64,000 nucleotides of DNA from Schmidtea nova (taxonomy: Eukaryota): NCBI GenBank assembly GCA_044892505.1, contig CM097882.1, positions 445,036,001 to 445,100,000 of the forward strand, in the 5' to 3' direction. The position numbers and the translations under genes were made by a program. Below are positions 15,419 to 59,538 of the stretch, piece after piece. The notes beneath the pieces were generated by a model, which did not search any database, was not told where the DNA came from, and worked only from the letters and a program-made list of their open reading frames with translations. Numbering within the stretch: position 1 is the first letter of the stretch; every line of letters starts with the position of its first letter.

Positions 15419-21453
<6,035 letters not shown>

Positions 21454-21551
21454 GTAAGTTTTAATAATTTGATTCATTATAAAATGTCTCCCAAAATTTT
21501 GGTTACCTGTTCAAATCAAATTGAACCACTGACAGTGCTGACGACCCAAAA

Positions 21552-21613
<62 letters not shown>

Positions 21614-32685: not shown

Positions 32686-33799
32686 TTTTATAAAATAAAA
32701 GTTAATTAGACATTATCTTTTTTCTTTTTAAAAAACATTTTGTCGACACGAAAATATATAAATTGACATCTCACTGTAAGTGGAGTGAATTATTTGAAAT
32801 CTCATGTTATAATATTAACAGTATTAATTTTAAATTATTTTTAATTGATTTTTTTTCTAAATAATTAGTGTTTTTCTCTATCTGTTTTTAGGCCTTAGTT
32901 TTGAGTTGTAAATAAAGATTAATTTTTAAGTGGCAATTTAATGGGAGTATTGGGGTGTTGAGAATGATATATGTAATTATTTATATCGAAACAGTACAAT
33001 GCTTTTGAATTGAATCGTTATAAAATAAAAACGAAAATTGAATGACTACACTGTATTTCACTCAATAAACTCACCTAATCGATTTTTTACTTTAGTTAAC
33101 ATTTTTCATAAAAATAATTACTGTTGTTGTTTTTTGTGGTTGTTAATCATCATTTTACCAGAGGTTTTAGACTGGTTTTATAAAAATAAAGATAATATTG
33201 TATTTTGGTTGAATAAAAATGGATAATATAATAGTACAAGAGTGAATGAAACTTTTGCATGGTTTTGTTAGAGGTATACCTTTTTATGTATGATGTGGGA
33301 ACAATGAACGCGAGTTTATGTGTTTATATACTTTTGGGTGTTGCTGAATAAGCTATTGTTATGATTATTTGCGATTGTATGTTGGGTGAAATAAGTGATT
33401 CAGTGAATGGGTGTGAATGCTTGTACAGTTTCTGGATGTATGATGCTAACTAACATAACTGGGTAGATTTTCGGTATGAATTGTCTGGGTGTATGATGCT
33501 AATGACTGTTATTGAGTGATACGGTGTGGTGTGTGTGTATTGTATTTTAAATAAATGTTGCATGTGGTACTAGTATGGATGGTGTTATTGAATGGAATGG
33601 ATGTATTGTTTTGCAAATATAGATGTAATATGACTTATGTGATATCGTGTGGGGGTACTTTATAAAATAATATATTTATATATAGATTATATAAAATATT
33701 TTTAGAATAATAAATAATAATTTTTATAATACTTTCTATAAATTTTAAATTTATCATCTTATGAAAGTTATATAATAAAATTTCTAATTTTTATAATAT

Positions 33800-34563
33800 T
33801 GTTGGGTTATTATTCTGTAAGATCGGTTTACTGACCTGACTCCTCGTGCTCTTTAATTTTCGAAATCAATGAACCCAACACAGAACAATCTTTTTATTCG
33901 CGATCAACACAAATTACAGTTTTAGTTACACACACGTTTGATTAATTTACGCTTTCTTTCGATTCGGATTTGACTCTTTAATTCACAGGATGCTTTCTTA
34001 CTTTGTCTGTTTAGTCGTTTCAGGATCCTTTTCTATTCGCTTTCACAGTCTTTTTAATAATCTCTCTTTTGACTGTCCACTCGTCGGCCCGGTCCTCTGT
34101 TTTGCGCTGCCTTTTATAGTTCTCGCAAATAGCAATTAGGTTTTATCGATACCTAAAAGTTAATCAATTTCGGGTTTAATTGTCTTGCTGACAATTAATT
34201 TTGATTACCCTCGAATTGATTTTCCCTAATTGCCCCGACTTTGATCTCTCGGGTCTTTTGGCGCTCGGGCTTTCTTCATCGCTCGGGTTTCCCATTGCCT
34301 CGGGCTTCCCATTGTCTCGGGTTTCCCATTGAGCGATTAATTAATTTTAATTATTTTGTTTTTATTAAATAACTTTCTCTGGGGACCCCTTATTAAATTT
34401 CTATTATTATTTTTGGGTTCGTCTTTTGATTTGGTATTCAACCATACCCATTTCCCCCAGTGAATATTAATTTTACATTTTTGATAAATTTTAATTAATT
34501 TTTGCATTTTAATTTATTTCGATATTTCTTGTTACTTTTGTGATTTTTATACTAACCCCAACA
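33800..34563 (-). repeat. 3' LTR (764 bp)
   Basis: Near-identical to 49564-50327. I found only two differences (ttagtcg/ttaatcg and cccggtc/ccccgtc). Confidence 0.97.
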
Positions 34564-34580
34564 TATCTCACCCCTTTATT
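34564..34580 (-). promoter_or_regulatory. Polypurine tract
   Basis: The minus strand reads aaataaaggggtgagata immediately before the TGTTGGGG start of the 3' LTR. Confidence 0.75.
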
Positions 34581-35098
34581 TAAGATTCGTCCTCGAATCT
34601 ATTTTTCCATTTTTCTTGTTAACATGGTGGAGTCTACTCAATACTATAGATGTGCGTAATGATAATTGTTAATAAAAATTTTGATTATAAATAAGACGGT
34701 AGAGAAATCTCAATACCAAATATTATACAATTTAATATAATAATTTTGCCACTATTCTACTTCTGATAATATTAATATCAATAATAATTATACTTATAAT
34801 TGGTAACGATAATAGTAATAATAGTAACAATACTAACGATAATGATAATTTAATAATACTAATACTAATACTAATACTAATAACAACAAATATTATTAAT
34901 AATAATTTATTATAATCCTTTCATATTGATTATAATAACAATAATAATTAATTATAATAACTGTAATAATTATACTTATAACGATACTAATAACAATTGC
35001 AATAATGATAATAATGCTAATAATTCTAATATTAATGATATAAAAATTCTAATAATTCCAACAACAATGTTGTAATAATAATGATAATAATAATAATA

Positions 35099-35153
<55 letters not shown>

Positions 35154-35438
35154 GAATTCGAATAATAAATTGTTAACGATAAAGTAACAATAATTCATTT
35201 ATTTATTTATATTTTTATTTATTTTTTTTTTGCAATGGTCATATAATAATAATACTAACAATAAGTTGATAATTAATAGTTAATACNNNNNNNNNNNNNN
35301 NNNNNNNNNNNNNNNNNNNNNNNNNNNNNNNNNNNNNNNNNNNNNNNNNNNNNNNNNNNNNNNNNNNNNNNNNNNNNNNNNNNNNNNNNNNNNNNNNNNN
35401 NNNNNNNNNNNNNNNNNNNNNNNNNNNNTAATTGTTAA

Positions 35439-35771
35439 ATCGGCTTTGCCGATGTTTACTTTAAAATCGGCTTTGCCGATAATTATTTGTGTTACTTGTT
35501 TTAAATCGGCTTTGCCGATTATTATTTATTGCAAAAGCATCATCAAAATTGATATAGAACAATTTGTCAGCTCTCATAGAATCAAGCAGTGAAAATCATT
35601 CGATATCATTACCAACATTAAAATTTTTAAAACTGCATCTGATTGGATTTGAAAAGTTTTCATGTAATTAATTTTATTTCAATGATCGGCTTTGCCGATA
35701 ATTATTTGTTTTTCTTGTTTTAAATCGGCTTTGCCGATTATTATTTATTCCCTTTGATCGGCATAGCCGAA
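35439..35771. repeat. Array of six ATCGGC-NNN-GCCGAT palindromes
   Basis: Exact atcggctttgccgat at 35439, 35466, 35505, 35685 and 35724; variant atcggcatagccgaa at 35757. Confidence 0.9.
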
Positions 35772-36049
35772 AATAGAGTCAATGTTGGGTTGGGTGTTGA
35801 CTTGATATATAACCATCAGATAGAACTCATGCGATTGCAGATTGCAGTTTGATTTTTTTTTTTGATAATATTTTTGGTAACTTTGACGAAAATGATTTTA
35901 TGGCAAATCACATATTTCCGGTTGTTGTCTCTGATTGATTTTCATTACAAATCTTTCAATTTCTCTTTATGATTTTATAAAAAGGAACTTTGCAGCAGCA
36001 GAAGAGAAAAAGAAAATAGCTGCTCTGAAATGGTTTTCTATTCACATTT

Positions 36050-36420
36050 GGTTTCAATTGTTGGGCTATTTTTGGAATTGTGAAAAGGATCGATGGAAAA
36101 TTGGTATGTAGTCAATTTTTTTTTTTTTTTGTTAATTTTAGATTTACATAAATAATTTTGATTAATTTGATTAACTGTAGTGAGAAGATCTATAAACATT
36201 TTTAATGTTAATGATGATGATGATAATAATAATAAGTTTCAATTGTTGGAATATTTTTGGAATTGTGAAAAGGATCGATGGAAAATTGGTATGTAATCAA
36301 TTTTTATTTCTGTTAATTTTAGATTTGCATAAATAATTTTGATTAATTTGATTAACTGTAATGAGAAGATCTATAAACATTTTTAATATTAATGATGATG
36401 ATGATAATAATAAAAATAAA
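36050..36420. repeat. ~185-bp tandem duplication in the element's 3' region, amid (AAT)n tracts
   Basis: ggaattgtgaaaaggatcgatggaaaattggtatgt and gagaagatctataaacatttttaat each occur twice. Confidence 0.85.
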
Positions 36421-36421
36421 A

Positions 36422-36478
<57 letters not shown>

Positions 36479-37111
36479 CATGATAATACTACTAATATTT
36501 TGATAATGATATTAATAATAACAATTATTCTTTTAATAATAATAATTATAACAATATGTTCTCACTAATAATACAAATTTTTTTTTTGAACAAGNNNNNN
36601 NNNNNNNNNNNNNNNNNNNNNNNNNNNNNNNNNNNNNNNNNNNNNNNNNNNNNNNNNNNNNNNNNNNNNNNNNNNNNNNNNNNNNNNNNNNNNNNNNNNN
36701 NNNNNNNNNNNNNNNNNNNNNNNCGTAATAATACCAATAATTATTTATAACGTCTTTTATAATTGATCATAATATAAATGATAATGAATATACGTTACCC
36801 CTACTAATAATAATTATAACAATACTTTGATACTAATAATAATAATAATGAATTAATAATTATAATGATGATAATAACAATAATAATAATACTCTTAATA
36901 ATGTTTCTAACAATTTTTTTTTTTTTTTTTTTTTTTTTTTACTGACTATGATGTTAATGCTCTCGTATTGTATGAGGGTTATTTTTTATCATATTCATAA
37001 TTTCTATATTATTATTTTTTTGGTTTATTTAACTTATTTTGGGATGGGACGCCAATATCAAAGACAATAAAATATTTATTAATTAACTAAAATATATATA
37101 CATATATGTTT

Positions 37112-38578
37112 TTAGTCCAGTTTTAGTTCGATTTTTCCAACTTCACTTTTGTAACGGATAAATGTTTTTTCACGCTGGTAAATAATCCCATTTACCGTTA
37201 TGGTTTCACTTGCTTCTATTTGTGAATATTTTCTTTTTCTATTTTCAAGGTGGAGTATCGGTCCATTTTCATATGATATTGAAACTCTTGCGATAGACAA
37301 ACCGGTTATTACCTCAACGCTTTCTTCAATTGCCTCGAGATCATTTTCTGTTGCCAACTTCAATTCCGATTTCCCAATTTCCAAATCAACTTCCATATCC
37401 TCTGTCAAATCGATTTGCTCTGCCATTTTCTCAATTCCCACAGACAGGGCAATGGTTTTCGTAATTGCCGTGCTCGTCGTTGGCATTGTGTTTATGGTAT
37501 GAACTTTTCGATATTCCTCCAATGAATACTTCTTTGATGGGGTTGCTTTGGGAATTTGGATATCATCAATCCATGAATTTTCAATTTTTAAATATATTTT
37601 CCGAATGTTTTTGACATCTTCCAGGGCTGAATGGATGCGCACTTGCGTTTGTTCTCCAAGCCTTTGTTCAACCACAGTTTTCAGTTTGAAAAATTCACCT
37701 TTTCTCGATATCCCTTGCAACTGAAGTGCCTTTGCTGTGGACAAGTCTCGAATGCCATATAATTGATTTGTCCAAATTTTCAAATACTGGAGTTCTGCAT
37801 GCAAATCATGGCCAACCAATATTTTCCCAACAGTTAAATTCTGAATTTGTTTCATCTCCAAATATTGGTCGCATTGGTTCCTACTCGCAACCTCTGTTAT
37901 GCCATGTATTCTCGATTGGAAATGTCTCATTTTTCCTCTCGGCGTGAGGTATATATTTTTAATTATTTTCCCAAAATAATTCATAATGGCGATTGACAAT
38001 GGCACCATTTGTCCATTTTCTGATGTGCCGTATTCTGCGTCGATAAACAATATCCTGCTTCTTATTTCTTCTTGGTTTAATTCTTTTCGAATGAAGGATA
38101 ATCTTCTTTTCATCATATTTTCTGATATTGGTAGTAACGTTGGATCTGATGGCAATCCTGGCTCAGTTTGCGGAACTTCTTCTTTACTGTTTCTGAACCT
38201 TGTTTCCAGCGCGATTAGTGCGTCTTCATTTGCCGATCTAAGTTGCTTCTTTAATGCTTCCTCTCGCATTCTCCACGATGAGTCTTTGTGCATTTCCCAC
38301 CATATCCGCTGATTTTCGTCGATCATTTCCACTTTTCCTTTCAACACATGTAGTGTGACTTCTTCTTCATTCATTACTTTGCTATTTTCCATCAACTTTA
38401 CTCCTCCTTTTCTGCTTACTCTCAGGATTCTTGTTTTCATTCTTCTGTCATCGCTTCTTAAATAATTCGGTATTTTTGTATTTTCATTAATTTGGAATGG
38501 GCCTTGTCCCATATAGTTTCGATGCAGTTTGAGGTAGGCATCATAGATATTTGGTATCCACTGAATTTGTTCCATCAC
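37112..38578 (-). CDS. Element accessory ORF, 488 aa, with a REX4/ISG20-like DEDDh 3'-5' exonuclease domain (~37580-38060)
   Basis: ExoI ILFIDAEYG, then SIAIMNYFGKII, SRIHGIT, ExoII-like GKILVGHDLHAELQYL, IRDLS, and ExoIII IHSALEDVK (H-x4-D). Confidence 0.85.
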   Translation of the reverse strand: MMEQIQWIPNIYDAYLKLHRNYMGQGPFQINENTKIPNYLRSDDRRMKTRILRVSRKGGVKLMENSKVMNEEEVTLHVLKGKVEMIDENQRIWWEMHKDSSWRMREEALKKQLRSANEDALIALETRFRNSKEEVPQTEPGLPSDPTLLPISENMMKRRLSFIRKELNQEEIRSRILFIDAEYGTSENGQMVPLSIAIMNYFGKIIKNIYLTPRGKMRHFQSRIHGITEVASRNQCDQYLEMKQIQNLTVGKILVGHDLHAELQYLKIWTNQLYGIRDLSTAKALQLQGISRKGEFFKLKTVVEQRLGEQTQVRIHSALEDVKNIRKIYLKIENSWIDDIQIPKATPSKKYSLEEYRKVHTINTMPTTSTAITKTIALSVGIEKMAEQIDLTEDMEVDLEIGKSELKLATENDLEAIEESVEVITGLSIARVSISYENGPILHLENRKRKYSQIEASETITVNGIIYQREKTFIRYKSEVGKIELKLD

Positions 38579-38909
38579 TGAAATATTTATAATTTAAAAT
38601 TTTGTTTAATTTAAAAATTTGACGCTATCGCCAAGGTGGAATACCTTGAGTACCCCATCCTGGCTGATAACGGTATAAATAATAAATATTTAATAAAATT
38701 AATTACCTATTTAATTTTCAGTTTTATTCTAATTTATTAATTTAGGGATTCCCTTATATTTTTAATTTTATCTCTCTTCAACCAATCAAATCCGTTTCCG
38801 ATCGAAAGCGCAAATTTTACAATGAATCACATAAATATGGATAAAAGAAAGTTCATACTATTACCGTACAAATAAATTATTATAGTTGCATGCAAAATTA
38901 AATGTCTCA

Positions 38910-41900
38910 CTATACAAACGTTTCCTCGTAGACAATCCACGGTCTTGGTGTCCTGGATTGACGTACTGCATGATTGTTCATTTTTTGAAAGCAAATCAGT
39001 AGTGAGAGAAGAATAACAATGAGAAATGGTGTTGCACTAATAACAATAGTCGATAAAATAATACATGTTTTTGCATTGTCGTTAGATGAAGATGATAAGT
39101 TTTTCAGAATTGTCACATCATAGATATGAGAAGGAATGATTGTCGTTTGAAGTTTTTTTGTCATATTTTTATATACATAATTGTTTTTTGAATCATCGCT
39201 ATCAGTAATGTTATATGAAACTCGAACAAGTTTGTTTTCGACAAGAGTGATCTGCCATTGTTTGGAATGAGAAGTAAATCGATAATATTTGATTTTCATC
39301 ATAACAAATTTTGAATTCGATATAGATCTTAATCTTTGAAAATTTAAAATTTGATGTGAAATGTTACTTGTTAATATTGCCTGAATTTTCCCGCAATAAT
39401 GAATTTCGACTTTTTTATTAACTTCCGCTTGTCGGGATGCGTTTAATTTCTGATTTTTATATTCAAAGATGACTCGATTTGTTTCATTCACCAATGTCAC
39501 GGATTGTTGAGTGGAATAGATCTTGAACCATTGATTATCAATTTCAGTACCATTTTTCCGTAATGCTTTTTCGTAATAATGAATGACGAGATTATATGTT
39601 TTATGCAATTCTAAATTAACATAATGTACATAAGGTTTCTTGAGATTTAACGTATCGATCGTGTACTTTTCGAAAATAATTTTCACTTGTTGGGATTCAT
39701 GGGGTTCCCAATATACATTGATACCTTTTATTATTGGTTCTATTGATACTTTGCTATTTAATTTTTTTGTCCAAATTTCAATTTCAAATTGATGTTGTAT
39801 TTTTGTATTATTTTCTTGATATTGTTGTTGGGTTATTAACCAGGGATATTTGTAATTCATTGTTAAATCATGCGCAACGTACATATTGTTGTTAAAATTC
39901 AACTTTATTGGTGGATCAAAATAATTTAATAAATTATTTACTTTTATTTCGTCTCTTGGTTCACAATGATAGACCCATACCATTTGGGTACATGTTGCAT
40001 ATATATCAAATTTTTCTAAAAGTGGAACTCTTTTTATTGCATACATTGGAAAGATTTTAGTCGAATTTGTTCCCAAAACATTAATCATCATTACTGTTGC
40101 AATCAGTAATACTTTATTGATATATCCCAATGATGCGGAGTTTTTTGGATCCCTCTGCTTGCTGATCGTTTCATCTTGCGACTTTTTCTTTTTTGATCTT
40201 AGCTGATATTTATTGTCATCCATAACTGGCACTTTTTTGCATCTATTAGCATGAATGATAATTGTTCCGGCCTTTTTATTATTTTGTGGCCGTAGTTTTA
40301 AATTAGTTTCAGTGGTATCGCATACCAGATATGGTCCTTTAAATGGTCTTTGTAGCTTTGGTGATAAACCCTTAGCTGGCTCTGGTTTGTTTACATAAAC
40401 CAAATCTCCTATTTCAATACCGTGCGCATGCGCTCGTTTGTCATAACACTCTTTATAACTTTCCTGTTGATGTTTTATTTTGAGTCCTGCTTGAACCCAT
40501 ACTGACTGTAGTCTTTCTTGCATGACAACTTTATAGTTCGATACATCCATATATTGCGATATAGGTGCTTGAAATTTTAAATCTATTGGCATATTATTCC
40601 GTCGTAGATACATAAGATAGAAAGGTGTTTCGCCAGTACTTTCATTTACTGAATTTCGATATGCGAATAAACACGGTTTAATGAATAGATCCCAATCTTT
40701 TTGCTTTCTGTTTACGTAAGATGATATCATATTGATTAATGTTCCGTTGAACCTTTCAACTAACCCATCTGTTTGCGGATGGTACGGTGATGTACTGAGT
40801 TTCAATATTCCGAATAATTCCGTTATTGAATTAAATAATTCGCTTTGAAAGTTTGTTCCTTGATCTGTAAGTAACTTCTTTGGTGCTCCATATCGAAAGA
40901 TAATGTTTTCTACAAATATTTTTGCAACTGTTTCTGCCTTTTGATTCTGCATTGCATAGGCTTCTGGCCATTTAGTTAGATAATCGCAAAATACAACGAT
41001 ATACTTATTGCCATTAATTGTTTCCGGTAGTGGACCAACAATGTCCATTGCTGTCATTTCCATTGGAGCTCCTGGTACAGGCATAGGCTTTAATGGTACT
41101 TTTATTTTCCTTCCTGTATTTCGTCTGGTCAGGCACACTCCACAAGATTGACACCATTGTCTAACGTCTTGTTCCATGGTGTCCCAATAATATTTCAATT
41201 TCAACCTTGACAATGTTTTTCTAGCTGATAAATGTCCTCCTAACGCCCCGTCATGGTATATCAACAGTAATGCTTTTCGATGTTTTGTTGGAACAATAAT
41301 TAACAAGTTTTCATTTTTAACACATTTTAACAGACCGTCATGGATAATATATTTATGTTTTTCTTTAACTATGTGTTTCCAGTCGCTCTCTTTTTTGATA
41401 GTGACTGCATTTTTCCGTATTTGTTTTAATTCATCATCATTTTCTTGATCATATTGTAATTCTTTCATATTGTTTGCGGTTTTAATTGCCATAAATATTG
41501 TGTCATTATAATTTGTTTCATTCTGATTATTATAATTTTCTTCAGGAATTCTCGATAAGGTATCCGCATTTGCATTTGATTTACCTGTGCGACATTTAAT
41601 TTCAAAATCATATTCCTGTAGAGCGATTGACCATCTTATCAGCTTACTGGCTGAATCTCTATGCTTCATGAGCCATTGTAGTGGATTATGATCTGTAAAT
41701 ACAATAAATTTCCTACCAATTAGATATTGTCTGAACGTGGTTATTCCATAAACTAGTGCTAACGTCTCCTTTTCAATGGTAGAATAATTCTTTTCATGAG
41801 GTTTCAATGTTCTACTAGCATAGGCAATAACGTGATCTTTCTCGCCGTTAACCTTTTGTCCGAGTACGGCGCCTAATGCAAAATTACTTGCGTCAGTCAT

Positions 41901-44396
41901 TAAGATGAAAGGTATTTTAAAATTTGGGCATCTCAAAATCGGCTTTTTAATTAGACTTTCTTTGAGCAAATCAAATGCTTCTTGCTGAGCTTTTGTCCAT
42001 TTAAATTGAGCTTGTTTCTTTAATAGCATATTCAAAGGCTGTGCCACGTTTGAAAAACTTTTAATAAATTTTCTATAATAACTAGCTAATCCAAGAAATT
42101 GTCGAACTTGATCTACATCTTTCGGAATTGGGTAATTTTTAATTTTCTCTACATTTTCTGGGTTTGGTTGTAATCCATTGCGTGAAATAATATGACCAAC
42201 ATAAACTACTTCTGATTTCCCCCATTCGCATTTCGAGGGTTTTATTTTCAAATTTGCTTCTAATAATCGTTTGAATACTGTTTCTACATCCTTTAGGTGT
42301 TCCTGAAAACTACTTGAAAATATTATTATATCATCAATATAAACTAATGCATGTGGAATGTCACGCAAGACAAAATTCATACCTCTTTGGAACGTGGCTG
42401 GCGCTCCTGTTAAGCCGAATGGTAATACATTGAATTCATACAAACCTTTGCCGTCTGAAAATGCTGTTTTTCTTCTATCTTCTTCTTTTACTTTAAACTG
42501 ATTATATCCTTTATTTAGATCAATTACTGTGAAGAATTTCACTTCTCCCATCTGATCAAACATTTCTTGTGGAACTGGAATTGGATACGTATCTTTTCTT
42601 GTAACCTGATTTAATTTTCGGTAGTCAACACAAAATCTTAAATCACCGTCTTTCTTTTTGACAACGACTATTGATGATGAGAATGGTGATGAACTATCTC
42701 GTATTATTTTAAATTCTTTCATTGCTTTGATTTGTCGATCACTTTCTTCTTGATGTATATATGGAATTCTATACGGTCTTAATTTGATAGGTGTTTCGTC
42801 GAGTAGTGGTATCTCGTGTTCTATCACTTGAGTAAGTCCCAAATCATATTCGTGCCTTGCAAACACTTTATCGTATCTTCTCAGTAACGCCATAAATTCT
42901 CGTTTTTGTACCTCAGTTAAATCGTTGCTAACAACTTGTGGTTTTTTATAGATTTTAATGTTCCTCGGTAACTTTTGATCCTTTTCTGTTCTAAACTTTG
43001 TTAACCTTCCCAACTTTGTTTTGGGTTTCATTTGAATGGCTTTTGCGCTATGATTTGCTATTCTTACTGGTACTGTTTGATCCTTGATTTTTACTATCTC
43101 ATCACACATTGGAATATCATATTTTTCTACTAGCTTCTGATTTGGCTCAAATATACATTCGTCATCTGATGCACCTGTTACATTTGCATAACATATTACT
43201 TCGCTTCTCGCTGGCAATTCCATTGCTTGATTTAGAAAGACTTCTTTGTTTGCAATTTTACTGGGCTGTTCCTTTATTAATTTCCCTGTAGTTAAATCAA
43301 GAGCAATTCCTTGTAATTGCCGCATAACATCCATCCCAACTAAACATATTACGGGACTTTTTCTTATAACTGTTACATTATGCGTTATTTCTTTATCACC
43401 GATAGTTAATTTAGCTTCTAATTTCCCAATTACATCTAAACAGTTCTGCGACATTGATTTGATCTTTTTACTCGTTGGTTTCATATTTACTCTTTCTTTA
43501 CGCGTTAACATTTTGTCTGACACTATTGTGTGACTTGAACCTGAATCCAACAAGGCTTCGACCGTTCTTTCATTAAACTGTATGTTTATCCGAGGTTGTT
43601 TGGCTTCTCTCCCCATGGTCATCAGCGCATAACTACATGGTAGACCAAGCATGTTTTTCCGTTCAATTTCCGCACTTGTTGGCTCGATATTTTCTAATTC
43701 ACATTTGATATGATTTACCGGTTTCATTTCCTTTAATCTTTCACTTGGATACATAGGTGCTGTTGGCACAAATGCTGGTGTATACCATTTTGTAAGAGTA
43801 TCAATTCCACTCAGCTTTGGTATTGGTTCAAGTAAAAATGTTGATTCTGGCTTTATTTCGCTTCCGACTCTTCCTTTTTGAAAATATTTCGGTTCATTTT
43901 TATTCTTATCATTACCGTCATTCTTGTTATTATTTCTGTCACCAAATTCACATAAGGATTCTTCGCTCTTTTGATCGCTTTTCAATTGTGCTTTCACACT
44001 TGCCATTTCTTTATATTGATGATGTGTAATAAAAAATTTTGCCAAAAATGGAATGCAACTAATGATAATTTTCCATGACCATCCTGATATTACGTATATT
44101 CTATGAGCAGATAGCACTTGAGATATGATTACCTTTAACGTTACTGCGACCACATAAATTCCAATTAAACCAGCACATGCTTGTCCTAAGAACATAAACT
44201 TTCCCCAAATCTTTTCCATCGTTTTATACGTGGCTCTTTTGAAATGATCAGGTGTTAATAAATATTCATAATTTATTTTATCCTCTCCATTTGGTAGTAT
44301 GGTGTCAATCATTTCTGAGATTATTCTCTCTTTCTTTGAAGGGAATAATAAATTTCTTTGGGCTTCTTCAATATCATCACTTGCATAAAACCCCAT
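38910..44396 (-). CDS. Env C-terminus/TM, aspartic protease, RT, RNase H, integrase, then a second type-I membrane protein (1828 aa frame)
   Basis: WGKFMFLGQACAGLIG TM; LLDSGSS; RFCVDYRKLN, LPFGLTGAP, VYIDDII; MTDASNFALGAVL; H..GGH..C..C, DIVGPLP, TDQG, GLVERFN, FKGPY; hydrophobic VLLIATVMMINVLG and CIILSTIVISATPFLIVILLSLLICF. Confidence 0.95.
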   Translation of the reverse strand: MGFYASDDIEEAQRNLLFPSKKERIISEMIDTILPNGEDKINYEYLLTPDHFKRATYKTMEKIWGKFMFLGQACAGLIGIYVVAVTLKVIISQVLSAHRIYVISGWSWKIIISCIPFLAKFFITHHQYKEMASVKAQLKSDQKSEESLCEFGDRNNNKNDGNDKNKNEPKYFQKGRVGSEIKPESTFLLEPIPKLSGIDTLTKWYTPAFVPTAPMYPSERLKEMKPVNHIKCELENIEPTSAEIERKNMLGLPCSYALMTMGREAKQPRINIQFNERTVEALLDSGSSHTIVSDKMLTRKERVNMKPTSKKIKSMSQNCLDVIGKLEAKLTIGDKEITHNVTVIRKSPVICLVGMDVMRQLQGIALDLTTGKLIKEQPSKIANKEVFLNQAMELPARSEVICYANVTGASDDECIFEPNQKLVEKYDIPMCDEIVKIKDQTVPVRIANHSAKAIQMKPKTKLGRLTKFRTEKDQKLPRNIKIYKKPQVVSNDLTEVQKREFMALLRRYDKVFARHEYDLGLTQVIEHEIPLLDETPIKLRPYRIPYIHQEESDRQIKAMKEFKIIRDSSSPFSSSIVVVKKKDGDLRFCVDYRKLNQVTRKDTYPIPVPQEMFDQMGEVKFFTVIDLNKGYNQFKVKEEDRRKTAFSDGKGLYEFNVLPFGLTGAPATFQRGMNFVLRDIPHALVYIDDIIIFSSSFQEHLKDVETVFKRLLEANLKIKPSKCEWGKSEVVYVGHIISRNGLQPNPENVEKIKNYPIPKDVDQVRQFLGLASYYRKFIKSFSNVAQPLNMLLKKQAQFKWTKAQQEAFDLLKESLIKKPILRCPNFKIPFILMTDASNFALGAVLGQKVNGEKDHVIAYASRTLKPHEKNYSTIEKETLALVYGITTFRQYLIGRKFIVFTDHNPLQWLMKHRDSASKLIRWSIALQEYDFEIKCRTGKSNANADTLSRIPEENYNNQNETNYNDTIFMAIKTANNMKELQYDQENDDELKQIRKNAVTIKKESDWKHIVKEKHKYIIHDGLLKCVKNENLLIIVPTKHRKALLLIYHDGALGGHLSARKTLSRLKLKYYWDTMEQDVRQWCQSCGVCLTRRNTGRKIKVPLKPMPVPGAPMEMTAMDIVGPLPETINGNKYIVVFCDYLTKWPEAYAMQNQKAETVAKIFVENIIFRYGAPKKLLTDQGTNFQSELFNSITELFGILKLSTSPYHPQTDGLVERFNGTLINMISSYVNRKQKDWDLFIKPCLFAYRNSVNESTGETPFYLMYLRRNNMPIDLKFQAPISQYMDVSNYKVVMQERLQSVWVQAGLKIKHQQESYKECYDKRAHAHGIEIGDLVYVNKPEPAKGLSPKLQRPFKGPYLVCDTTETNLKLRPQNNKKAGTIIIHANRCKKVPVMDDNKYQLRSKKKKSQDETISKQRDPKNSASLGYINKVLLIATVMMINVLGTNSTKIFPMYAIKRVPLLEKFDIYATCTQMVWVYHCEPRDEIKVNNLLNYFDPPIKLNFNNNMYVAHDLTMNYKYPWLITQQQYQENNTKIQHQFEIEIWTKKLNSKVSIEPIIKGINVYWEPHESQQVKIIFEKYTIDTLNLKKPYVHYVNLELHKTYNLVIHYYEKALRKNGTEIDNQWFKIYSTQQSVTLVNETNRVIFEYKNQKLNASRQAEVNKKVEIHYCGKIQAILTSNISHQILNFQRLRSISNSKFVMMKIKYYRFTSHSKQWQITLVENKLVRVSYNITDSDDSKNNYVYKNMTKKLQTTIIPSHIYDVTILKNLSSSSNDNAKTCIILSTIVISATPFLIVILLSLLICFQKMNNHAVRQSRTPRPWIVYEETFV

Positions 44397-45460
44397 TTGG
44401 GCAATTTTTTTAATGATGTAAAATTTACCAAGTATTCTAGAGTGATCAATTCTAATTTATCCGGCGTTTTTACTCCTCGGTAATCTGGTAACGCAATCCA
44501 ATGATCTGGTGCTAATCGGTATAACGGAGCAAGTAATCTATTGCATTGAAGAACCTTTGGTTTAACGTGCTCCTCCAATAGTATCCTAGTTATTGGTTCC
44601 ATAAACCGCATTTTTCCGTTCATGCTCACTGGTAATTCGTTTGTGCACTTTTCATATTTCATTATTTTTACTGTTACCTCTTTACATCTGTAGCTATACA
44701 AAGCTTCTCCAAATATCCTAGCAAATACTCCATTTTCTGATATCAACATAGGCGCAACTAAATTTGGGTTTGTAATTACCATTGCCATTCGATTTCGAAG
44801 TATCTCTTTATTTAATTTACAATCATTAAGGATCATTTCTCGATATATATTCTCCATGATGTTCTGGCTAAAATGAAACAAAAAATCAATTTTATTATTA
44901 AAATAGTGAGTTAATTTAATCTCTGTCGAATGTATTCTCGTTTTAGCTTCGTGCACCATCATTTTGGATACATAAACGCCTTTATAATTTGTTGCATATA
45001 CCATTTGACCGCATTTACTGGTGATATCCTTTTTTATGAAGCGCATGCTATCCGTTGGCATGGTCGACATCAAAACCGTTGCCGTTTTCTTCATCCATAT
45101 CGGCGTTGATCTAATTGTTATATTTGGGGCATAATTATTATTAAAATTGTCTGGTCGTTCTCGAAACTGTTCTCCACTCAATTCTTTGAAATTCATAGTT
45201 TTTAAGTGCGCTAAATTACATTCCTGGGTTTTGACATTATACACAAGAATGGACTCTCCTGTTTGGCAATTGGTTTGTTTCATGTTACAAAACGGATGTG
45301 TCTGTAATTTCCCCGTATCATCATCAAAAGCTCCTTCAAATTCTCTCAATTCCGTTAAATATTCCTCTATTACTACAGACTGTTTGATTATCTTCCCATC
45401 TACTTTGTATGGTTCTCCTTCACAATCTCCATCTTGTTTCATTACTCCTTTTACGACCAC
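44321..45460 (-). CDS. Middle part of a chuvirus-like glycoprotein ectodomain; in frame with the upstream ORF after a single TAA
   Basis: Cys-rich pattern GDCEGEPY, FCNMKQTNC, CGQMVYATNY, LNDCKLNKEILRN.L, GEALYSYRCKEV, CTNELPV, RFMEPITRIL, CNRLLAP.Y..DHW. Confidence 0.8.
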   Translation of the reverse strand: MVVKGVMKQDGDCEGEPYKVDGKIIKQSVVIEEYLTELREFEGAFDDDTGKLQTHPFCNMKQTNCQTGESILVYNVKTQECNLAHLKTMNFKELSGEQFRERPDNFNNNYAPNITIRSTPIWMKKTATVLMSTMPTDSMRFIKKDITSKCGQMVYATNYKGVYVSKMMVHEAKTRIHSTEIKLTHYFNNKIDFLFHFSQNIMENIYREMILNDCKLNKEILRNRMAMVITNPNLVAPMLISENGVFARIFGEALYSYRCKEVTVKIMKYEKCTNELPVSMNGKMRFMEPITRILLEEHVKPKVLQCNRLLAPLYRLAPDHWIALPDYRGVKTPDKLELITLEYLVNFTSLKKLPKWGFMQVMILKKPKEIYYSLQRKRE

Positions 45461-45463
45461 TGT

Positions 45464-48400
45464 TTATCTAATTCTATGATTTCGCTTTGCTTTTAATTTA
45501 ATTTCCGAATTTATTTTTAATTCTCCTGTTTGAAAAGCAGCGAGGCAATTTTCCGGCATTACTTCCACTGGCCGTGGGATTGTATACATTTTTATCATTG
45601 AAGTATGGCTCCACTTGCCACAGTAAAATATAAAGGAAGTGCGCTTAACTATACATTCTCTTACTGTTGTTCGTCGTAAGTCAGATTCTTGATATACATG
45701 ATATTTCACATCATTTTCTATCTTTAATTTTCTTGGATATGCGTCTGAACACTCTGCCATATCTACAACTGAATAAATTTTCCCCATTTCTGTTTTTGAA
45801 CAGTCATACGCTGTCATACTCGTTACCTGTGTGATTCCAGCACATAAAATAATTATCATAAAGATTGCCCAAGGAAACATTATTGTCTTCCTCTTTTCTG
45901 GACTAACTCTGACATTTAGCGATTTTTGAGGTAAACTTTCTTTATTACTTTCGTTTTCATTTATTATAAACATTTTCATCAACTTGTCCCAACCTCCAAT
46001 CTTTTTAACCCAGCTCATTAAGTATTCGTTTATATTTCGAGCAGCAGTATCTATTAAATTTTCTAACTCATCTGATTTCATGATCTTATGAGCACCAATT
46101 TCCAAAATTACATAAGCTAAGCTCATTAATGTTACTTCTGTAGTAATTCCATTTCTAGTTAATTTCTCGATTACATCTTTGTCACAAAATCTTTCATTTT
46201 TACCAAACCTTTGCATGATGCTAGGGAGTCTGTTTCTCACTTCATTTACTATGCCTCCCAATTCATATTTTTCATCTACCTCCATTTCACACATTGGGTA
46301 TACTGCTTTAGTCAAGCCTTTTAATAATGCTTTGGTTTTATCTACTTCCTGTTCCAATCGCACAAGACCTTTCTTTATTTCATATAAAGTTCTCGGCTTC
46401 TTAGTATTAATTTCATTATTCATTTCGCCTTTAAGCTCCGCCAATTCTTGCACTTTTGTTAATTTATACTCATTTTTGTTATTCTTTTTGGTTTCCTCAT
46501 CATCCTTTATTACTTCGTTTATTTCTTTGATTTCTTTAACCTCATTTTCATCATCATTTTCTCTGTCTGTATTTGATCCATCAGATTTGTCTATTAATTC
46601 AAATTTCTGTTCCTTAATCACTGTTACACAATTTATCAAATATCCATTTCCACTATCGGAACGTAAATATCCATTTTCATCTAACTCTTGTGGCACAAAT
46701 CCACAATCAAATAAATATTCATCATCATCTAATTCTTCTCCTTTAAACATAAATATAATAATTCCATCTTTTCCTATTCTTTCAGCAGCTCTTTTTCTTA
46801 ATTTCCGAACTTTTGTGCACCAATGCTCTACTATATATTCAGTTTTACCATAATCTTCGTAATCTAATGCTATTGTAAACGGATTCAATTCTATTGTAGT
46901 TTTTCTAAGTTTTTTGCCTAATTGTCGTACTAAATTTCTTAAATTTTCTCTATATTTTGATTTTTCATACATGTATGGCCTTATTGTATCTATAATATCT
47001 AATTTACTATCTCTCTCAATTTCAATTTCTTCTATCAATCTTAATTTTCTAATAATTTCATTTGCATCCCCTTTACACAAAATATCCTTTAATTCCCTAC
47101 AAATTTTCTGTGATTCATCTTTTATTATTTCATTGTTTCTATTCATAAATACTATCTGTACTCTGTTTTTATTCTCAGGTGTAATACCACAATCTATTAA
47201 TATTTCCTCGTCATTTAAACATCTATTTTTAAATTTTACTTCCTTTATCCATTTTCCACTATTTTCCTCTAATCTCTTTTTAAATTCCTTTACGCACTCT
47301 CCTATTTCACAACGAATACACATCACATCATTATTACTTTCATCAACAACATCAATAACAATAAAATCTAACCATGTTTTCTCTCTGAACAATTTTCCAA
47401 ATATTTTCATTATTTTCTCAGTTTCAGTTTTATCTTTTGAATTCTCATTATTATAATCAGCACACATTTCAATTACAGTTTTTAATTTTTGTATACTCAT
47501 CGGCATTTGACTCAATTTCTTTAGCATTGTCATTATTTTTGACGTCTCTTTTACTTTTGCCTCCATTAAAACTTTTGTTCTCGACAAAATCATTTTTATT
47601 TTTTCTGTTTCTAATTCATCATTTACTACTTCCTTCATTATATCTGTCTCTGACCCTTCTGATTGCGATTCATACATCATATGATTATCAGCTTCTTCGT
47701 CTGATTCAAATTTACACATTAATTGATCCAATCGTTTACCCATTTGCTTTATCTCTTTTTCAATTCTTTCGTTAGCATCATCGGGTTGTACAAAAGCCAC
47801 ATTATCAAATTTTGATTTATCATTTTGAAATCTGATTTTCTTTAATATAGGTCTTTGAAATTTTCCATTATTCTTTGGGCATGATCTAGCCATGTGTCCA
47901 TATCCTCTGCATGAGTGACATTGAATTTGTCCTTGGAGATTCACTCTATCTCTCTGTGGTGATGGTGATGTTGACGGAGATCTCGATCTTGCAAAGCAAT
48001 TTCGTGAAGAATGGCCTTTCCTTCCACAATTATAACACTGCATATTATCACTAGCTCTTTGATCATTGTTGCCCCTTCTCTTGAAGGTTTTCTCGACATT
48101 GTCTTTCAACCAATCTGGCCACATCTTTCTTGGACTCCGTTGCGAATTATTTTTAAACCAACATTGACTATTACTGTGCCCTTTTCGTTGGCAATTATCA
48201 CACTGAACAGGACTTGGGCTTCTTCGAGCGCTGTTTTTAAACCAACATTGATTTACTTGATGTCCCAATCTTTTACAATAACTACATTGAATTGGCCTTT
48301 CTCTCTCTTCATTTGGGCTGTTTGACGACTTTCTTGGCTCGAATTTCACTCTGAACTTTGGTGATGGACTAGTTGATTTTTGCAAAAGAGTCTCTCTAAC

Positions 48401-49066
48401 TGGAGTTACCGATTCATCTCTCGTTTCATTTACAATTGCAAAGGATTCTGTTGTCTGTTGTGTGGTTTTGAGATTCAATTCAATCTTCATGGCCTTTTTA
48501 ATCAATTCATCGAAATTGTTGAAATCTACATAACACAGTGCTTTTTTGATCTCTCTTTTTACTCCTGACAGAAATTGATCTTGTAGTAATTCTTTCACTT
48601 GTTTCGTCACATCCGGTTGTTCTGGTTTCGCTTCAAAGGCTTTTTCTGCAAGAGTTGTTAAATGATAAGCGAACTCACTTACCGATTCATTTGACTTTTG
48701 TACTCGGTTGTAAAATTTTTGGCGCATTATTCTTTTGATATCGCCACCGATTAACTTGGCTGCCAATGCATCTTTTAGCTTTGTCCAATCATTTGCGATA
48801 AGTCTTTTGTCGATCTGTTGCCAAGCTTCTCGTGCTGCACCTTTCAAATATAATGGCAACCTTTGTACCATAATTGATTGGCTCCATCCGTATGCTGTCG
48901 CGTACATATAGTAATCTGCCATGAAATCAACAAAATCAATTGGGTCTCCTCCGTATTGCTCTACTGGCAATTTCTGACAACTTGCAAAATCACTACCATT
49001 GTTTGTGGGAGTAGTAGACATGGGTATTTGATCATTATTATTTGAATTACTAGCCATATTTTCCAC
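45464..49066 (-). CDS. Gag (capsid-like region plus 4 CCHC knuckles), 2 ubiquitin-like domains, Bcl-2-like domain, TM/signal peptide and Env N-terminus (1200 aa)
   Basis: YGGDP..F...Y...A..YGW..LPLYLKGAAREAW (retrotransposon gag); four Cx2Cx4Hx4C; FKNRCLNDEEILIDCGI and FKGEELDDDEYLFDCGF; LMSWVKKIGGWDKLMKMF; PWAIFMIIILCAGITQVTS-MTAYDC. Confidence 0.92.
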   Translation of the reverse strand: MENMASNSNNNDQIPMSTTPTNNGSDFASCQKLPVEQYGGDPIDFVDFMADYYMYATAYGWSQSIMVQRLPLYLKGAAREAWQQIDKRLIANDWTKLKDALAAKLIGGDIKRIMRQKFYNRVQKSNESVSEFAYHLTTLAEKAFEAKPEQPDVTKQVKELLQDQFLSGVKREIKKALCYVDFNNFDELIKKAMKIELNLKTTQQTTESFAIVNETRDESVTPVRETLLQKSTSPSPKFRVKFEPRKSSNSPNEERERPIQCSYCKRLGHQVNQCWFKNSARRSPSPVQCDNCQRKGHSNSQCWFKNNSQRSPRKMWPDWLKDNVEKTFKRRGNNDQRASDNMQCYNCGRKGHSSRNCFARSRSPSTSPSPQRDRVNLQGQIQCHSCRGYGHMARSCPKNNGKFQRPILKKIRFQNDKSKFDNVAFVQPDDANERIEKEIKQMGKRLDQLMCKFESDEEADNHMMYESQSEGSETDIMKEVVNDELETEKIKMILSRTKVLMEAKVKETSKIMTMLKKLSQMPMSIQKLKTVIEMCADYNNENSKDKTETEKIMKIFGKLFREKTWLDFIVIDVVDESNNDVMCIRCEIGECVKEFKKRLEENSGKWIKEVKFKNRCLNDEEILIDCGITPENKNRVQIVFMNRNNEIIKDESQKICRELKDILCKGDANEIIRKLRLIEEIEIERDSKLDIIDTIRPYMYEKSKYRENLRNLVRQLGKKLRKTTIELNPFTIALDYEDYGKTEYIVEHWCTKVRKLRKRAAERIGKDGIIIFMFKGEELDDDEYLFDCGFVPQELDENGYLRSDSGNGYLINCVTVIKEQKFELIDKSDGSNTDRENDDENEVKEIKEINEVIKDDEETKKNNKNEYKLTKVQELAELKGEMNNEINTKKPRTLYEIKKGLVRLEQEVDKTKALLKGLTKAVYPMCEMEVDEKYELGGIVNEVRNRLPSIMQRFGKNERFCDKDVIEKLTRNGITTEVTLMSLAYVILEIGAHKIMKSDELENLIDTAARNINEYLMSWVKKIGGWDKLMKMFIINENESNKESLPQKSLNVRVSPEKRKTIMFPWAIFMIIILCAGITQVTSMTAYDCSKTEMGKIYSVVDMAECSDAYPRKLKIENDVKYHVYQESDLRRTTVRECIVKRTSFIFYCGKWSHTSMIKMYTIPRPVEVMPENCLAAFQTGELKINSEIKLKAKRNHRIR

Positions 49067-49542
49067 TTGTTTCTTATTTCGAAGATTATAAGATTTCTTT
49101 TGTACAACTTTTTCTCGTCTAAATTTTAAAATATTACAATTTTTAATTTTACCTTTTGTTTTAATTTTGACTTGATTTTTGGCAATTGGATTTTATCGAT
49201 TCTTTCTTTTCTGTTCAAGCTTTTTACTCTTTTATTTCAACTGATACAATTTATTTTCACTCTTTTTTTTTTTCAACAATTAATCTCGTTTTGTTTAGTT
49301 TTCTAACTTTAATTTCTCTTTTTACAATTATTCGATTTTACTTTTCAACAATTTTCTCTCTGATTTTATTCAATTATGTCGATTAATATCGTTTTCTTTA
49401 TTTATCAAATTCAATTTTCTATAGCAATTTATCTCTCCTTTTCTGTGATTCACTCCTTCACCGACCTTTAGATCACGTCGGTTATTATCGTAACAATTTT
49501 TCAACTATTCAATATTTTCACTATGCTCTCACCGACCCTCGA

Positions 49543-49560
49543 ATCACGTCGGGCTCACCA
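49543..49560 (-). promoter_or_regulatory. Primer-binding site, tRNA-Trp type
   Basis: The minus strand reads TGGTGAGCCCGACGTGAT, 3 nt inside the 5' LTR. It differs by one base from the avian retrovirus tRNA-Trp PBS TGGTGACCCCGACGTGAT. Confidence 0.85.
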
Positions 49561-49563
49561 AAA

Positions 49564-50327
49564 TGTTGGGTTATTATTCTGTAAGATCGGTTTACTGACC
49601 TGACTCCTCGTGCTCTTTAATTTTCGAAATCAATGAACCCAACACAGAACAATCTTTTTATTCGCGATCAACACAAATTACAGTTTTAGTTACACACACG
49701 TTTGATTAATTTACGCTTTCTTTCGATTCGGATTTGACTCTTTAATTCACAGGATGCTTTCTTACTTTGTCTGTTTAATCGTTTCAGGATCCTTTTCTAT
49801 TCGCTTTCACAGTCTTTTTAATAATCTCTCTTTTGACTGTCCACTCGTCGGCCCCGTCCTCTGTTTTGCGCTGCCTTTTATAGTTCTCGCAAATAGCAAT
49901 TAGGTTTTATCGATACCTAAAAGTTAATCAATTTCGGGTTTAATTGTCTTGCTGACAATTAATTTTGATTACCCTCGAATTGATTTTCCCTAATTGCCCC
50001 GACTTTGATCTCTCGGGTCTTTTGGCGCTCGGGCTTTCTTCATCGCTCGGGTTTCCCATTGCCTCGGGCTTCCCATTGTCTCGGGTTTCCCATTGAGCGA
50101 TTAATTAATTTTAATTATTTTGTTTTTATTAAATAACTTTCTCTGGGGACCCCTTATTAAATTTCTATTATTATTTTTGGGTTCGTCTTTTGATTTGGTA
50201 TTCAACCATACCCATTTCCCCCAGTGAATATTAATTTTACATTTTTGATAAATTTTAATTAATTTTTGCATTTTAATTTATTTCGATATTTCTTGTTACT
50301 TTTGTGATTTTTATACTAACCCCAACA
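49564..50327 (-). repeat. 5' LTR (764 bp) with TATA (TATAAAAG, 49875-49882), AATAAA (49657-49662) and ~18-bp U3 repeats (~50010-50095)
   Basis: Matches 33800-34563; motifs read on the minus strand. Confidence 0.97.
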
Positions 50328-51073
50328 ATATACATTTTTTTGAATTCAAATTTTTATATTTTAAGATTTTATATATTAATCGTAAATTTTTTCTATGAAA
50401 TTTCGAATTTGGAATTTTATAAAATGATAAAAATTTTTATATAATAACAATATTTTCGATTTGTAATTTTCATGGGTTTCAATATAATTTTTGATTTACA
50501 AACTCTTAGGAAAATTTTTGGTTTACAATTTTTTCATTATAAATTTTTCGCAATATAATAAAAAGTAAATTTTTATTTTTTATGATCAAAAACGAAATCT
50601 AAATAATAATAAATTTTTATCCACGAATTTCGCAATCCAAATAAGAATTCAATCTAAAAATTCTATATACTAAATAAAAATACAAGTAAAATAAATTGTA
50701 AATTTTTTCAAAGAATGGTTTTCGACATCAGGTAAGGTGAATTTCGGTTTCGTTCGAGCATGAATTTCCCAACCAAAGTACGCGCGAATTTTTCGAGACA
50801 CTTCACTTAGGAACTTCAGGCTCCCGAAAACAAGGTTCACTGGAGAAAATTATTTAGATAATGAATGAGGTTTAATTCAGATCAATCAATACTTGTCTTC
50901 ATAATTCGTTTCATTTCGTGATCATTATATCAGCTTTGAGCATTATATCAAACGATTCTCTTTTCAATGTTAACTTTTTATTCTACTTGTGTTTTCGGAT
51001 AAGATGGTAATTGTTGTGAGAGTGAAGGCGAATGACGGGTAACATATTCTTGTACAGTTAAATTATATAATGG

Positions 51074-59532: not shown

Positions 59533-59538
59533 AGGTGC

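What the first reader, a model, noticed from the sequence alone, without database searches (positions are those of the whole stretch)
37112..38578. LTR element carries a REX4/ISG20-like DEDDh exonuclease as a separate intact ORF
ExoI (DAE), an ExoII-like GHDLHAEL (Glu where Asp is usual) and ExoIII (HSALED) are present, flanked by unique N- and C-terminal extensions. From memory, DEDDy-type exonucleases have been reported in some rotifer and nematode LTR elements; this one has the DEDDh His and resembles ISG20/REX4, ISG20 being an antiviral RNase in vertebrates. It could act against small-RNA silencing or process element nucleic acids (inference).
Basis: partly seen in the sequence, partly recalled or inferred. 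Interest (0 to 1): 0.7.

Follow-up and report, generated by a model that had tools for sequence, protein, structure and literature searches.

The report
Retrovirus-like element carries two-domain RNA nuclease
A young envelope-bearing jumping gene, most likely of a planarian flatworm, carries an extra gene for an RNA-trimming enzyme like the animal antiviral protein ISG20, fused to a barrel-shaped domain, which may help the element blunt its host's RNA defences.

Summary
Confirmed and extended. An open 487-codon ORF (ATG 38575, stop 37112, minus strand) lies 334 bp behind pol inside a 16.5-kb LTR element with 99.7% identical LTRs. Sequence, profile and fold searches all rank ISG20/ISG20L2 first; the active site is D-E-E-H-D. 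The 'unique' N-terminal extension is a conserved double-stranded beta-helix (cupin/AlkB-like) domain without the AlkB metal triad. This two-domain protein defines a family (49 sequences examined; of 47 complete, 33 keep the catalytic set and 14 have lost it) whose tails are enriched in basic, NLS-like runs. The element is a defective copy of the published planarian GAG-ENV-POL, gB-type errantivirus group (env about 82% identical to Smed_errantivirus_1, by eye) with Burro-like Bcl-2/ubiquitin-like cargo. Exonuclease ORF3s in LTR elements are known (rotifer DEDDy); I found no report of a DEDDh one or of this fusion in nine literature searches. Best guess (0.45): a separately spliced, nuclear RNA nuclease/RNA binder acting against host RNA silencing. 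Main gap: only this one family member has known genomic context, and no activity was tested. New variant of a known kind; interest 0.5.

The parts
49564..50327 (-). 5' LTR, 764 bp, TG..CA; TATAAA at 49882
49543..49560 (-). primer-binding site (tRNA-Trp-like; the tRNA assignment is recalled, not from a call)
45464..49057 (-). gag (Retrotrans_gag, CCHC knuckles), spacer, and N-terminal part of gB-type env; ends at an in-frame stop at 45464-45466
46553..47365 (-). two ubiquitin-like stretches in the gag-env spacer (weak; second one shared with related polyproteins)
45923..46315 (-). Bcl-2-like stretch in the gag-env spacer (sub-threshold)
44321..45463 (-). middle part of env (PF24664, E 4e-36); frame changes within 44321-44456
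38910..44456 (-). env C-terminus, protease, RT, RNase H, integrase, then a ~400-aa membrane-protein-like tail
38623..38672 (-). stable RNA hairpin in the pol-exo spacer (-28.7 kcal/mol, z -5.8; chosen after folding the whole spacer, which gave z -1.5)
38578..38583 (-). candidate 3' splice acceptor TTTCAG, 2 bases before the ATG
37112..38575 (-). accessory ORF, 487 aa: cupin-like domain + DEDDh (DEEDh) exonuclease + tail
38189..38575 (-). N-terminal double-stranded beta-helix (cupin/AlkB-like) domain; conserved His 38348-38350 and Glu 38204-38206
37559..38065 (-). exonuclease domain, catalytic set D-E-E-H-D
37229..37240 (-). RKRK basic run (NLS-like)
37115..37222 (-). short C-terminal beta module shared with 3 other members of 37 tails examined
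34564..37111 (-). AT-rich, low-complexity 3' region with an A27 run (36914-36940) and two scaffold gaps
34564..34581 (-). polypurine-tract-like sequence next to the 3' LTR
33800..34563 (-). 3' LTR, 99.74% identical to the 5' LTR; 4-bp ATAT duplication on the outer flanks

Best explanation
The ORF is a long-resident accessory gene of a planarian-type GAG-ENV-POL errantivirus, captured once from a host REX4/ISG20L2-like gene and fused to a cupin-like barrel. It is made apart from Gag-Env-Pol, from a spliced subgenomic mRNA that uses the TTTCAG acceptor just before its ATG (inferred). The protein goes to the nucleus through its basic tail (inferred), binds RNA 3' ends with the exonuclease domain and, in members with D-E-(D/E)-H-D such as this one, trims them 3' to 5' with two metal ions (inferred from fold and residues). 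The barrel, which keeps a His/Glu/Asn pocket but no dioxygenase triad, selects the substrate or a partner (inferred). Most likely purpose: counter-defence, degrading or sequestering small RNAs, their precursors or element-derived RNA that would trigger PIWI silencing. Shown: ORF, position in the element, fold, residues, family, repeated catalytic loss. Not shown: expression, splicing, location, activity, target. My odds by step: accessory gene of the element 0.9; active nuclease 0.75; counter-defence role 0.45.
For: Residence: A-rich sense strand like the element's other genes (A 0.41, A3 0.43, T3 0.21; pol A 0.40, A3 0.45) and unlike host KDM5 exons (A 0.31-0.35, T3 0.35-0.44); 20-35% identity among relatives with both domains kept. 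Separate expression: never fused in 29 of 29 long polyproteins examined, no hit among 3225 candidates of 1198-3420 aa (weak evidence by the tool's own note); TTTCAG occurs 4 times in 16,257 sense bases, one of them at this spot (chance about 0.003-0.006 for a 10-base window). Nucleus: runs of 4 or more K/R in 15 of 37 tails against 1.7 expected. Binding matters beyond catalysis: 14 of 47 complete members lost the catalytic set yet keep the barrel Glu/Asp (14 of 14) and the GIRDL-type motif, on at least three separate branches. Context: the element also carries Bcl-2-like and ubiquitin-like cargo as Burro does; planarian gypsy elements are held down by the nuclear PIWI SMEDWI-2 (PMC8532177, passages); the plant small-RNA nuclease SDN1 is the next closest solved relative; arenavirus ExoN serves immune evasion (PMC7968707, passages).
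Against: No direct evidence of target or activity. Only 1 of 49 family members has known genomic context; no polyprotein hit shared a contig length with an exo homolog, so the others could be host genes or belong to other mobile elements. An open frame in this copy is not evidence of selection: only about 0.1 nonsense change is expected since insertion. Two of the degenerate rows that argue for separate losses (P0044, P0057) are long branches of unsure place. In rotifers the DEDDy ORF3s showed no clear link with copy number or transcription (PMC5408684). piRNA 3' ends are normally 2'-O-methylated, which hinders DEDDh enzymes (recalled). This copy's env is broken at two places upstream of pol.
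Confidence: 0.45

Rival explanations
1. Replication helper: the nuclease clears RNA left in RNA:DNA hybrids, trims the tRNA primer or cDNA ends, or removes R-loops at the provirus, working with the element's RNase H.
For: REXO4 degrades the RNA strand of R-loops together with RNase H1 (PMC12915616, start of abstract in listing); ISG20 cuts ssRNA and ssDNA (PMC7756014, passages); 3'-end processing was proposed for rotifer ORF3s.
Against: Not fused to pol in 29 of 29 polyproteins, no evident route into the particle; 14 of 47 members lack the catalytic set; most gypsy elements replicate without such a gene (established knowledge).
Confidence: 0.2
2. Weapon against competitors or a self-limiting brake: like ISG20, it degrades or blocks foreign RNA (viruses, other retroelements) or surplus element RNA, to the benefit of the host cell.
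For: Closest solved relatives are ISG20 and ISG20L2; ISG20 has nuclease-dependent and nuclease-independent antiviral effects, which would fit dead members; host DEDDh enzymes restrict LINE-1 (PMC10123124, abstract start).
Against: Likeness to ISG20 is by fold and 22% identity, with no orthology shown; self-limiting elements are expected to be out-competed (argument in PMC5408684).
Confidence: 0.12
3. Passenger: a host gene or retrocopy that landed in the 3' region (or a scaffolding join), with no role for the element; the relatives are host genes.
For: A27 run 170 bases after the stop, one of only 2 such runs in the window; two gaps before the 3' LTR; context of relatives unknown.
Against: No target-site duplication around ORF plus A-run; no gap between pol and the ORF; matching ATAT flanks (chance about 0.02); element-like composition; no such two-domain protein among solved structures, Pfam or Atlas clusters.
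Confidence: 0.1
4. The barrel is the working part (metal or small-molecule binding, or reading a modified base) and the nuclease is mainly a scaffold.
For: His in 43 of 49 and Glu/Asp in 45 of 49 outlast the nuclease residues; AlkB-family folds tie for first; orchid gypsy elements carry an m6A demethylase (PMC9289625, title and abstract start).
Against: No HxD..H triad or second and third His; 33 of 47 members still keep all five nuclease residues.
Confidence: 0.08
5. Proofreading for an oversized retroelement genome, as nidovirus ExoN does.
For: 16.5-kb element; D/E at ExoII as in nidoviral ExoN.
Against: Separate ORF; many dead members; nsp14 ranks 39th-40th (Z 9.7) against ISG20 Z 17.3; relatives are RNA-processing enzymes.
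Confidence: 0.05

Closest known systems
Human ISG20 (PDB 1wlj) and ISG20L2 (7yw5); REX4-like DEDDh exoribonucleases
   Same: Fold (Z 17.3, rmsd 2.5 A, 158 residues), ExoI/II/III layout with catalytic His, best sequence and profile hits; Atlas neighbours are eukaryotic RNase_T clusters including ISG20.
   Different: Only 21-25% identical; Glu at ExoII; fused N-terminal cupin-like domain; element-encoded and intronless here; many relatives catalytically degenerate.
DEDDy ORF3 of bdelloid Juno/Vesta LTR elements and Athena/Terminons (PMC5408684)
   Same: Separate exonuclease ORF behind pol in a gypsy-type element; DEED change of the motif.
   Different: RNase D-like DEDDy there, His-type REX4-like here, so an independent capture; those elements mostly lack env, this one has a gB-type env as well; no cupin domain reported.
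Smed_errantivirus_1 and the GAG-ENV-POL gB-type errantiviruses of flatworms, nematodes and bryozoans (PMC13524379)
   Same: Gene order and env type; env about 82% identical to Smed_errantivirus_1 (44 differences in 250 positions, counted by eye, the broken codon left out); that family has 45 intact copies, family 2 has 215.
   Different: The paper's main text has no occurrence of exonuclease, DEDD, ISG20 or nuclease. It looked 3 kb past pol for LTRs and found none for 6 of 6 Schmidtea elements; here the 3' LTR is 4,347 bases past pol. This copy's env is interrupted.
Burro/GYPSM1 giant planarian gypsy elements (review PMC6431247)
   Same: CCHC gag, ubiquitin/SUMO-like and BCL2-like motifs, mononegavirus-like env in frame between gag and pol.
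   Different: Half the size; no MATH, BIR, ankyrin or dUTPase by Pfam; no exonuclease is named for Burro in that section.
Arabidopsis SDN1 (5z9x), arenavirus NP ExoN, Maelstrom/Exuperantia-type pseudonucleases
   Same: DEDDh enzymes acting on small RNAs or in immune evasion; loss of catalysis with kept RNA binding.
   Different: More distant than ISG20; functional analogies only.

Membership tests
DEDDh (DnaQ-like) 3'-5' exonuclease superfamily | ExoI Asp and Glu | tested here: met
DEDDh (DnaQ-like) 3'-5' exonuclease superfamily | Acidic ExoII residue (Asp, or Glu in DEED variants) | tested here: met
   Glu here; 19 of 33 intact relatives have Glu, 14 Asp; D/E variation is on record
DEDDh (DnaQ-like) 3'-5' exonuclease superfamily | ExoIII His...Asp | tested here: met
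DEDDh (DnaQ-like) 3'-5' exonuclease superfamily | DnaQ-like fold | tested here: met
   predicted model
DEDDh (DnaQ-like) 3'-5' exonuclease superfamily | Metal-dependent 3'-5' nuclease activity | not testable with these tools
   needs assay
REX4/ISG20/ISG20L2 subfamily | Closer to this subfamily than to SDN/REX1, PAN2, ERI1, TREX, DnaQ | tested here: met
   profile E 6e-33 and 2.5e-19 against SDN1 2.4e-17, PolC 2.5e-8, PAN2 1.8e-4; Z 17.3 against 14.9 next; limited to proteins with solved structures
REX4/ISG20/ISG20L2 subfamily | Nested within the subfamily in a tree with named REXO4, ISG20L2, AEN, REX1 | not tested
   no named cellular sequences were at hand
Bdelloid DEDDy ORF3 | Tyr-type ExoIII, RNase D-like | tested here: not met
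   His-type; RNase D ranks 31st (Z 10.2)
GAG-ENV-POL gB-type errantivirus (Metaviridae) | LTRs, PBS, PPT, gypsy-order PR-RT-RH-IN | tested here: met
GAG-ENV-POL gB-type errantivirus (Metaviridae) | gB/Monjiviricetes-type env between gag and pol | tested here: met
   PF24664 in three consecutive pieces; close to Smed_errantivirus_1
'Intact' errantivirus in the sense of PMC13524379 | Uninterrupted ORFs | tested here: not met
   stop and frame change in env: filed as a defective copy
Burro | Length above 30 kb | tested here: not met
   16,528 bases
Burro | Ubiquitin-like and BCL2-like motifs before env | tested here: inconclusive
   Pfam Bcl-2 E 0.024, ubiquitin E 0.16, both under cut-off; shared with related polyproteins
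Double-stranded beta-helix (cupin/AlkB) fold, N-domain | DSBH barrel | tested here: met
   model pLDDT 89.5; ALKBH1 Z 9.4 rmsd 3.2/124, ALKBH6 Z 9.4 rmsd 5.5/133, cupin NMB1881 Z 9.2 rmsd 3.0/93, tied, and the 50 rows shown are dominated by this fold; Z values are middling
2OG-Fe(II)/AlkB dioxygenase | HxD/E...H metal triad | tested here: not met
   one conserved His, one Glu/Asp, one Asn
Nidovirus ExoN | Zinc fingers within the ExoN domain | tested here: not met
   no conserved Cys in the family consensus; feature from PMC7968707

The most novel reading that the evidence does not exclude
A whole clade of envelope-bearing flatworm retroelements encodes a dedicated anti-piRNA protein: a cupin-like barrel that reads a modified small-RNA end or a PIWI-pathway partner, coupled to a REX4-derived nuclease that trims or, in the dead versions, sequesters the guide RNA. 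It would be an animal LTR-element suppressor of PIWI silencing with a defined enzyme, evolving in an arms race, and testable in Schmidtea where close relatives have tens to hundreds of copies.
Probability: 0.2. Interest if true: 0.85.

Novelty: new variant of a known kind. Interest (0 to 1): 0.5.

Why it matters
Whether animal retroelements encode suppressors of small-RNA silencing is an open question with few candidates. This gives a concrete, two-domain candidate with natural active and dead versions, in an element family of a model animal with routine RNAi and a known nuclear PIWI pathway. It also shows a second, independent capture of a 3'-5' exonuclease by LTR elements (His-type, beside the rotifer Tyr-type) and suggests that the published planarian errantiviruses have an unannotated 3' gene.

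Tried and rejected
Fused forms: none among 3225 long candidates or in 29 related polyproteins. Accession numbers and names of the homologs could not be had, so host range and context are open. Prokaryotic or phage origin: no match in 50,697 phage records and none of 113 pattern matches in GTDB genomes confirmed (single protein, close relatives only). Second copy in the window: none. Atlas search of the N-domain: no usable hit. Viral fold library: only weak cupin/2OG-type matches. Rfam: 0 matches in 33000-52000. Retrocopy signature: no duplication around ORF and A-run. C-terminal module: only 4 of 37 tails, at a relaxed threshold. One search labelled the ExoII column one residue off; the counts come from the corrected, and the intact/degenerate split is unchanged. 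105 of the 150 rows (family fragments without the N-domain and exonuclease-only proteins) were left out of all counts; no tree with cellular proteins was built. Sacco et al. 2022 (nematode ERVs) and Grohme et al. 2018 (Burro) were not held; Repbase was not searchable; figures and bioRxiv supplements were not seen; any of these may already note this ORF. No complex prediction was run.

Full report
Observation. The minus-strand frame 37112-38578 is open. Its first ATG is at 38575, giving 487 residues; 1000 shuffles of the same DNA gave at most 136 open codons. Pfam RNase_T is below cut-off (E 0.027), but phmmer against solved structures gives ISG20L2 (E 1.5e-7), ISG20 (1.2e-6) and SDN1 (0.014); a 45-sequence family profile gives 6e-33, 2.5e-19 and 2.4e-17. 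The predicted model matches ISG20 first by Foldseek (TM 0.79 of the target) and by VIA-align (Z 17.3, rmsd 2.5, 158 aligned; RNase D Z 10.2, nsp14 Z 9.7). Atlas neighbours of the domain are eukaryotic RNase_T clusters, one named ISG20.

The element. Two 764-bp LTRs (33800-34563, 49564-50327) differ at 2 positions, end TG..CA and are flanked by ATAT on both sides (chance about 0.02); a PBS and a purine tract are in place. The order on the minus strand is gag, a long spacer, a gB/Monjiviricetes-type env, protease, RT, RNase H, integrase, a membrane-protein-like tail, then after 334 bases the exonuclease ORF. Env is interrupted by an in-frame stop at 45464-45466 and a frame change within 44321-44456, while related polyproteins of 2,600-4,100 aa run through; these are lesions or assembly errors (about 0.9 nonsense change is expected over the coding span since insertion). 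Two scaffold gaps lie between the ORF and the 3' LTR, none on the pol side. PMC13524379 (abstract, sections 5 part 1 and 15, passages, two supplementary tables) describes GAG-ENV-POL gB-type errantiviruses in flatworms, nematodes and bryozoans. The env segment it lists for Smed_errantivirus_1 differs from this one at 44 of 250 positions by my eye count, so the host is most likely a Schmidtea-like planarian (inference). The spacer holds sub-threshold Bcl-2-like and ubiquitin-like stretches, as described for Burro (PMC6431247, section 7 read), but the element is half Burro's size.

The protein has three parts. The N-terminal 130 residues fold with high confidence (pLDDT 89.5) into a double-stranded beta-helix; ALKBH1, ALKBH6 and a cupin tie at Z 9.2-9.4 and the list is dominated by that fold. 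These Z values are middling and show a fold, not a function. Conserved polar positions are one His (43 of 49), one Glu/Asp (45 of 49) and an Asn (37 of 49); the AlkB triad is absent. The nuclease follows. The tail is predicted disordered, with an RKRK run and a short terminal beta module shared by 4 of 37 tails.

The family. A word-based search found 8 relatives among 8000 candidates; a full profile search listed 150 best hits, of which 45 rows with the N-domain, plus 4 sequences, made a set of 49. Of 47 complete over the active site, 33 keep all five residues (19 DEEHD, 14 DEDHD) and 14 do not. The degenerate ones fall on at least three branches, two of them long single rows inside well-supported clades of intact members. 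Basic runs occur in 15 of 37 tails against 1.7 by shuffle. No fusion to pol was seen, nor relatives in phages or prokaryotes. The genomic context and hosts of the 48 relatives are unknown: this is the largest gap.

Expression. The ORF shares the element's A-rich strand bias and differs from the neighbouring host KDM5 exons, which points to long residence. TTTCAG ends 2 bases before the ATG; it occurs 4 times in the element's 16,257 sense bases. A candidate donor lies at 49765, behind the LTR TATA box, and a stable hairpin sits 45 bases upstream of the ATG (picked after folding the spacer). A spliced subgenomic mRNA is inferred, not shown. The open frame in this very young copy is no evidence of selection by itself; conservation across 20-35% identical relatives is.

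Mechanism. A gene made apart from pol, probably nuclear, dispensable in most gypsy elements, and repeatedly turned into a non-catalytic form fits an RNA-binding or RNA-trimming counter-defence protein better than a core replication enzyme. Planarian gypsy elements are silenced by nuclear SMEDWI-2 (PMC8532177, passages); SDN1 and arenavirus ExoN are functional precedents (SDN1's role is from its PDB title and recall). I give this 0.45. Rivals: replication clean-up as REXO4 does with RNase H1 (0.2; listing), ISG20-like action on competitors or self (0.12; PMC7756014 passages), passenger or join (0.1), barrel-centred function (0.08), proofreading (0.05).

Novelty. Exonuclease ORF3s are known in bdelloid LTR elements and Terminons, where they are DEDDy/RNase D-like with a DEED motif (PMC5408684, passages; PMC6338049, first quarter read). 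Nine library searches showed no paper that, by title or abstract start, reports a DEDDh/REX4-like ORF or a cupin-exonuclease fusion in an LTR element; the errantivirus paper has 0 occurrences of the relevant words and the Schmidtea genome paper PMC11410931 0 of 'exonuclease'. Two key papers and Repbase could not be read. The errantivirus paper found no LTRs for 6 of 6 Schmidtea elements within 3 kb of pol and 14 kb total; this element's 3' LTR is 4.3 kb away, which would fit an overlooked 3' gene there (inference). Verdict: real, a new variant of a known kind, interest 0.5; 0.85 if it proves to be a PIWI-pathway suppressor (probability 0.2).

Noticed in passing
window 45923-46315 (-): Bcl-2-like stretch in the gag-env spacer: Pfam E 0.024, weak PDB hits almost all Bcl-2/Bcl-xL, matches in related polyproteins P0161 and P0168.
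   Followed up: partly
window 46553-46885 and 47063-47365 (-): Two ubiquitin-like stretches; the 46553-46885 one matches 8 of 29 related polyproteins at E below 1e-4.
   Followed up: partly
window 38913-40196 (-): About 400-aa tail after integrase with an N-terminal and a C-terminal hydrophobic stretch, like a type I membrane protein; no Pfam hit; related polyproteins P0157, P0158, P0162 end in tails of similar layout but no significant similarity.
   Followed up: partly
P0156, P0158, P0159, P0160, P0162, P0163, P0164, P0171: Related polyproteins carry extra aspartic-protease-like repeats before and after pol.
   Followed up: no
window 44321-44456 and 45464-45466: Both coding lesions of this young copy fall in env; gag, pol and the exonuclease are open.
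   Followed up: partly
window 38623-38672 (-): 22-bp RNA hairpin, z -5.8, between pol and the exonuclease ORF; no Rfam match.
   Followed up: partly
window 36914-36940: A27 run on the element strand 170 bases after the stop, downstream of two AATAAA sites.
   Followed up: partly
window 51124-51402: Inverted stretch 69% identical to part of the LTR, probably an LTR remnant of a related family.
   Followed up: no
window 54110-56016 (-): Decayed second gypsy pol (RT end, RNase H, integrase), 28% identical to the main one.
   Followed up: no
window 57451-60285 (+): 693-aa frame without Pfam match followed directly by a Ulp1 (C48) protease frame, possibly a DNA transposon.
   Followed up: no
window 15443-21600 (+): Host KDM5-like gene (ARID, PHD, JmjC, C5HC2) with short AT-rich introns.
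   Followed up: partly
window 8105-9560 (-): DDE_1 (pogo/Tigger-type) transposase frame.
   Followed up: no
P0047 and other rows: The best-scoring exonuclease-only hits include tandem REX4-like proteins with 2-4 matched stretches.
   Followed up: no
P0165: A gB-env/pol polyprotein is filed in NCBI as a hypothetical protein of a Flavobacteriaceae MAG, probably eukaryotic contamination of that bin.
   Followed up: no
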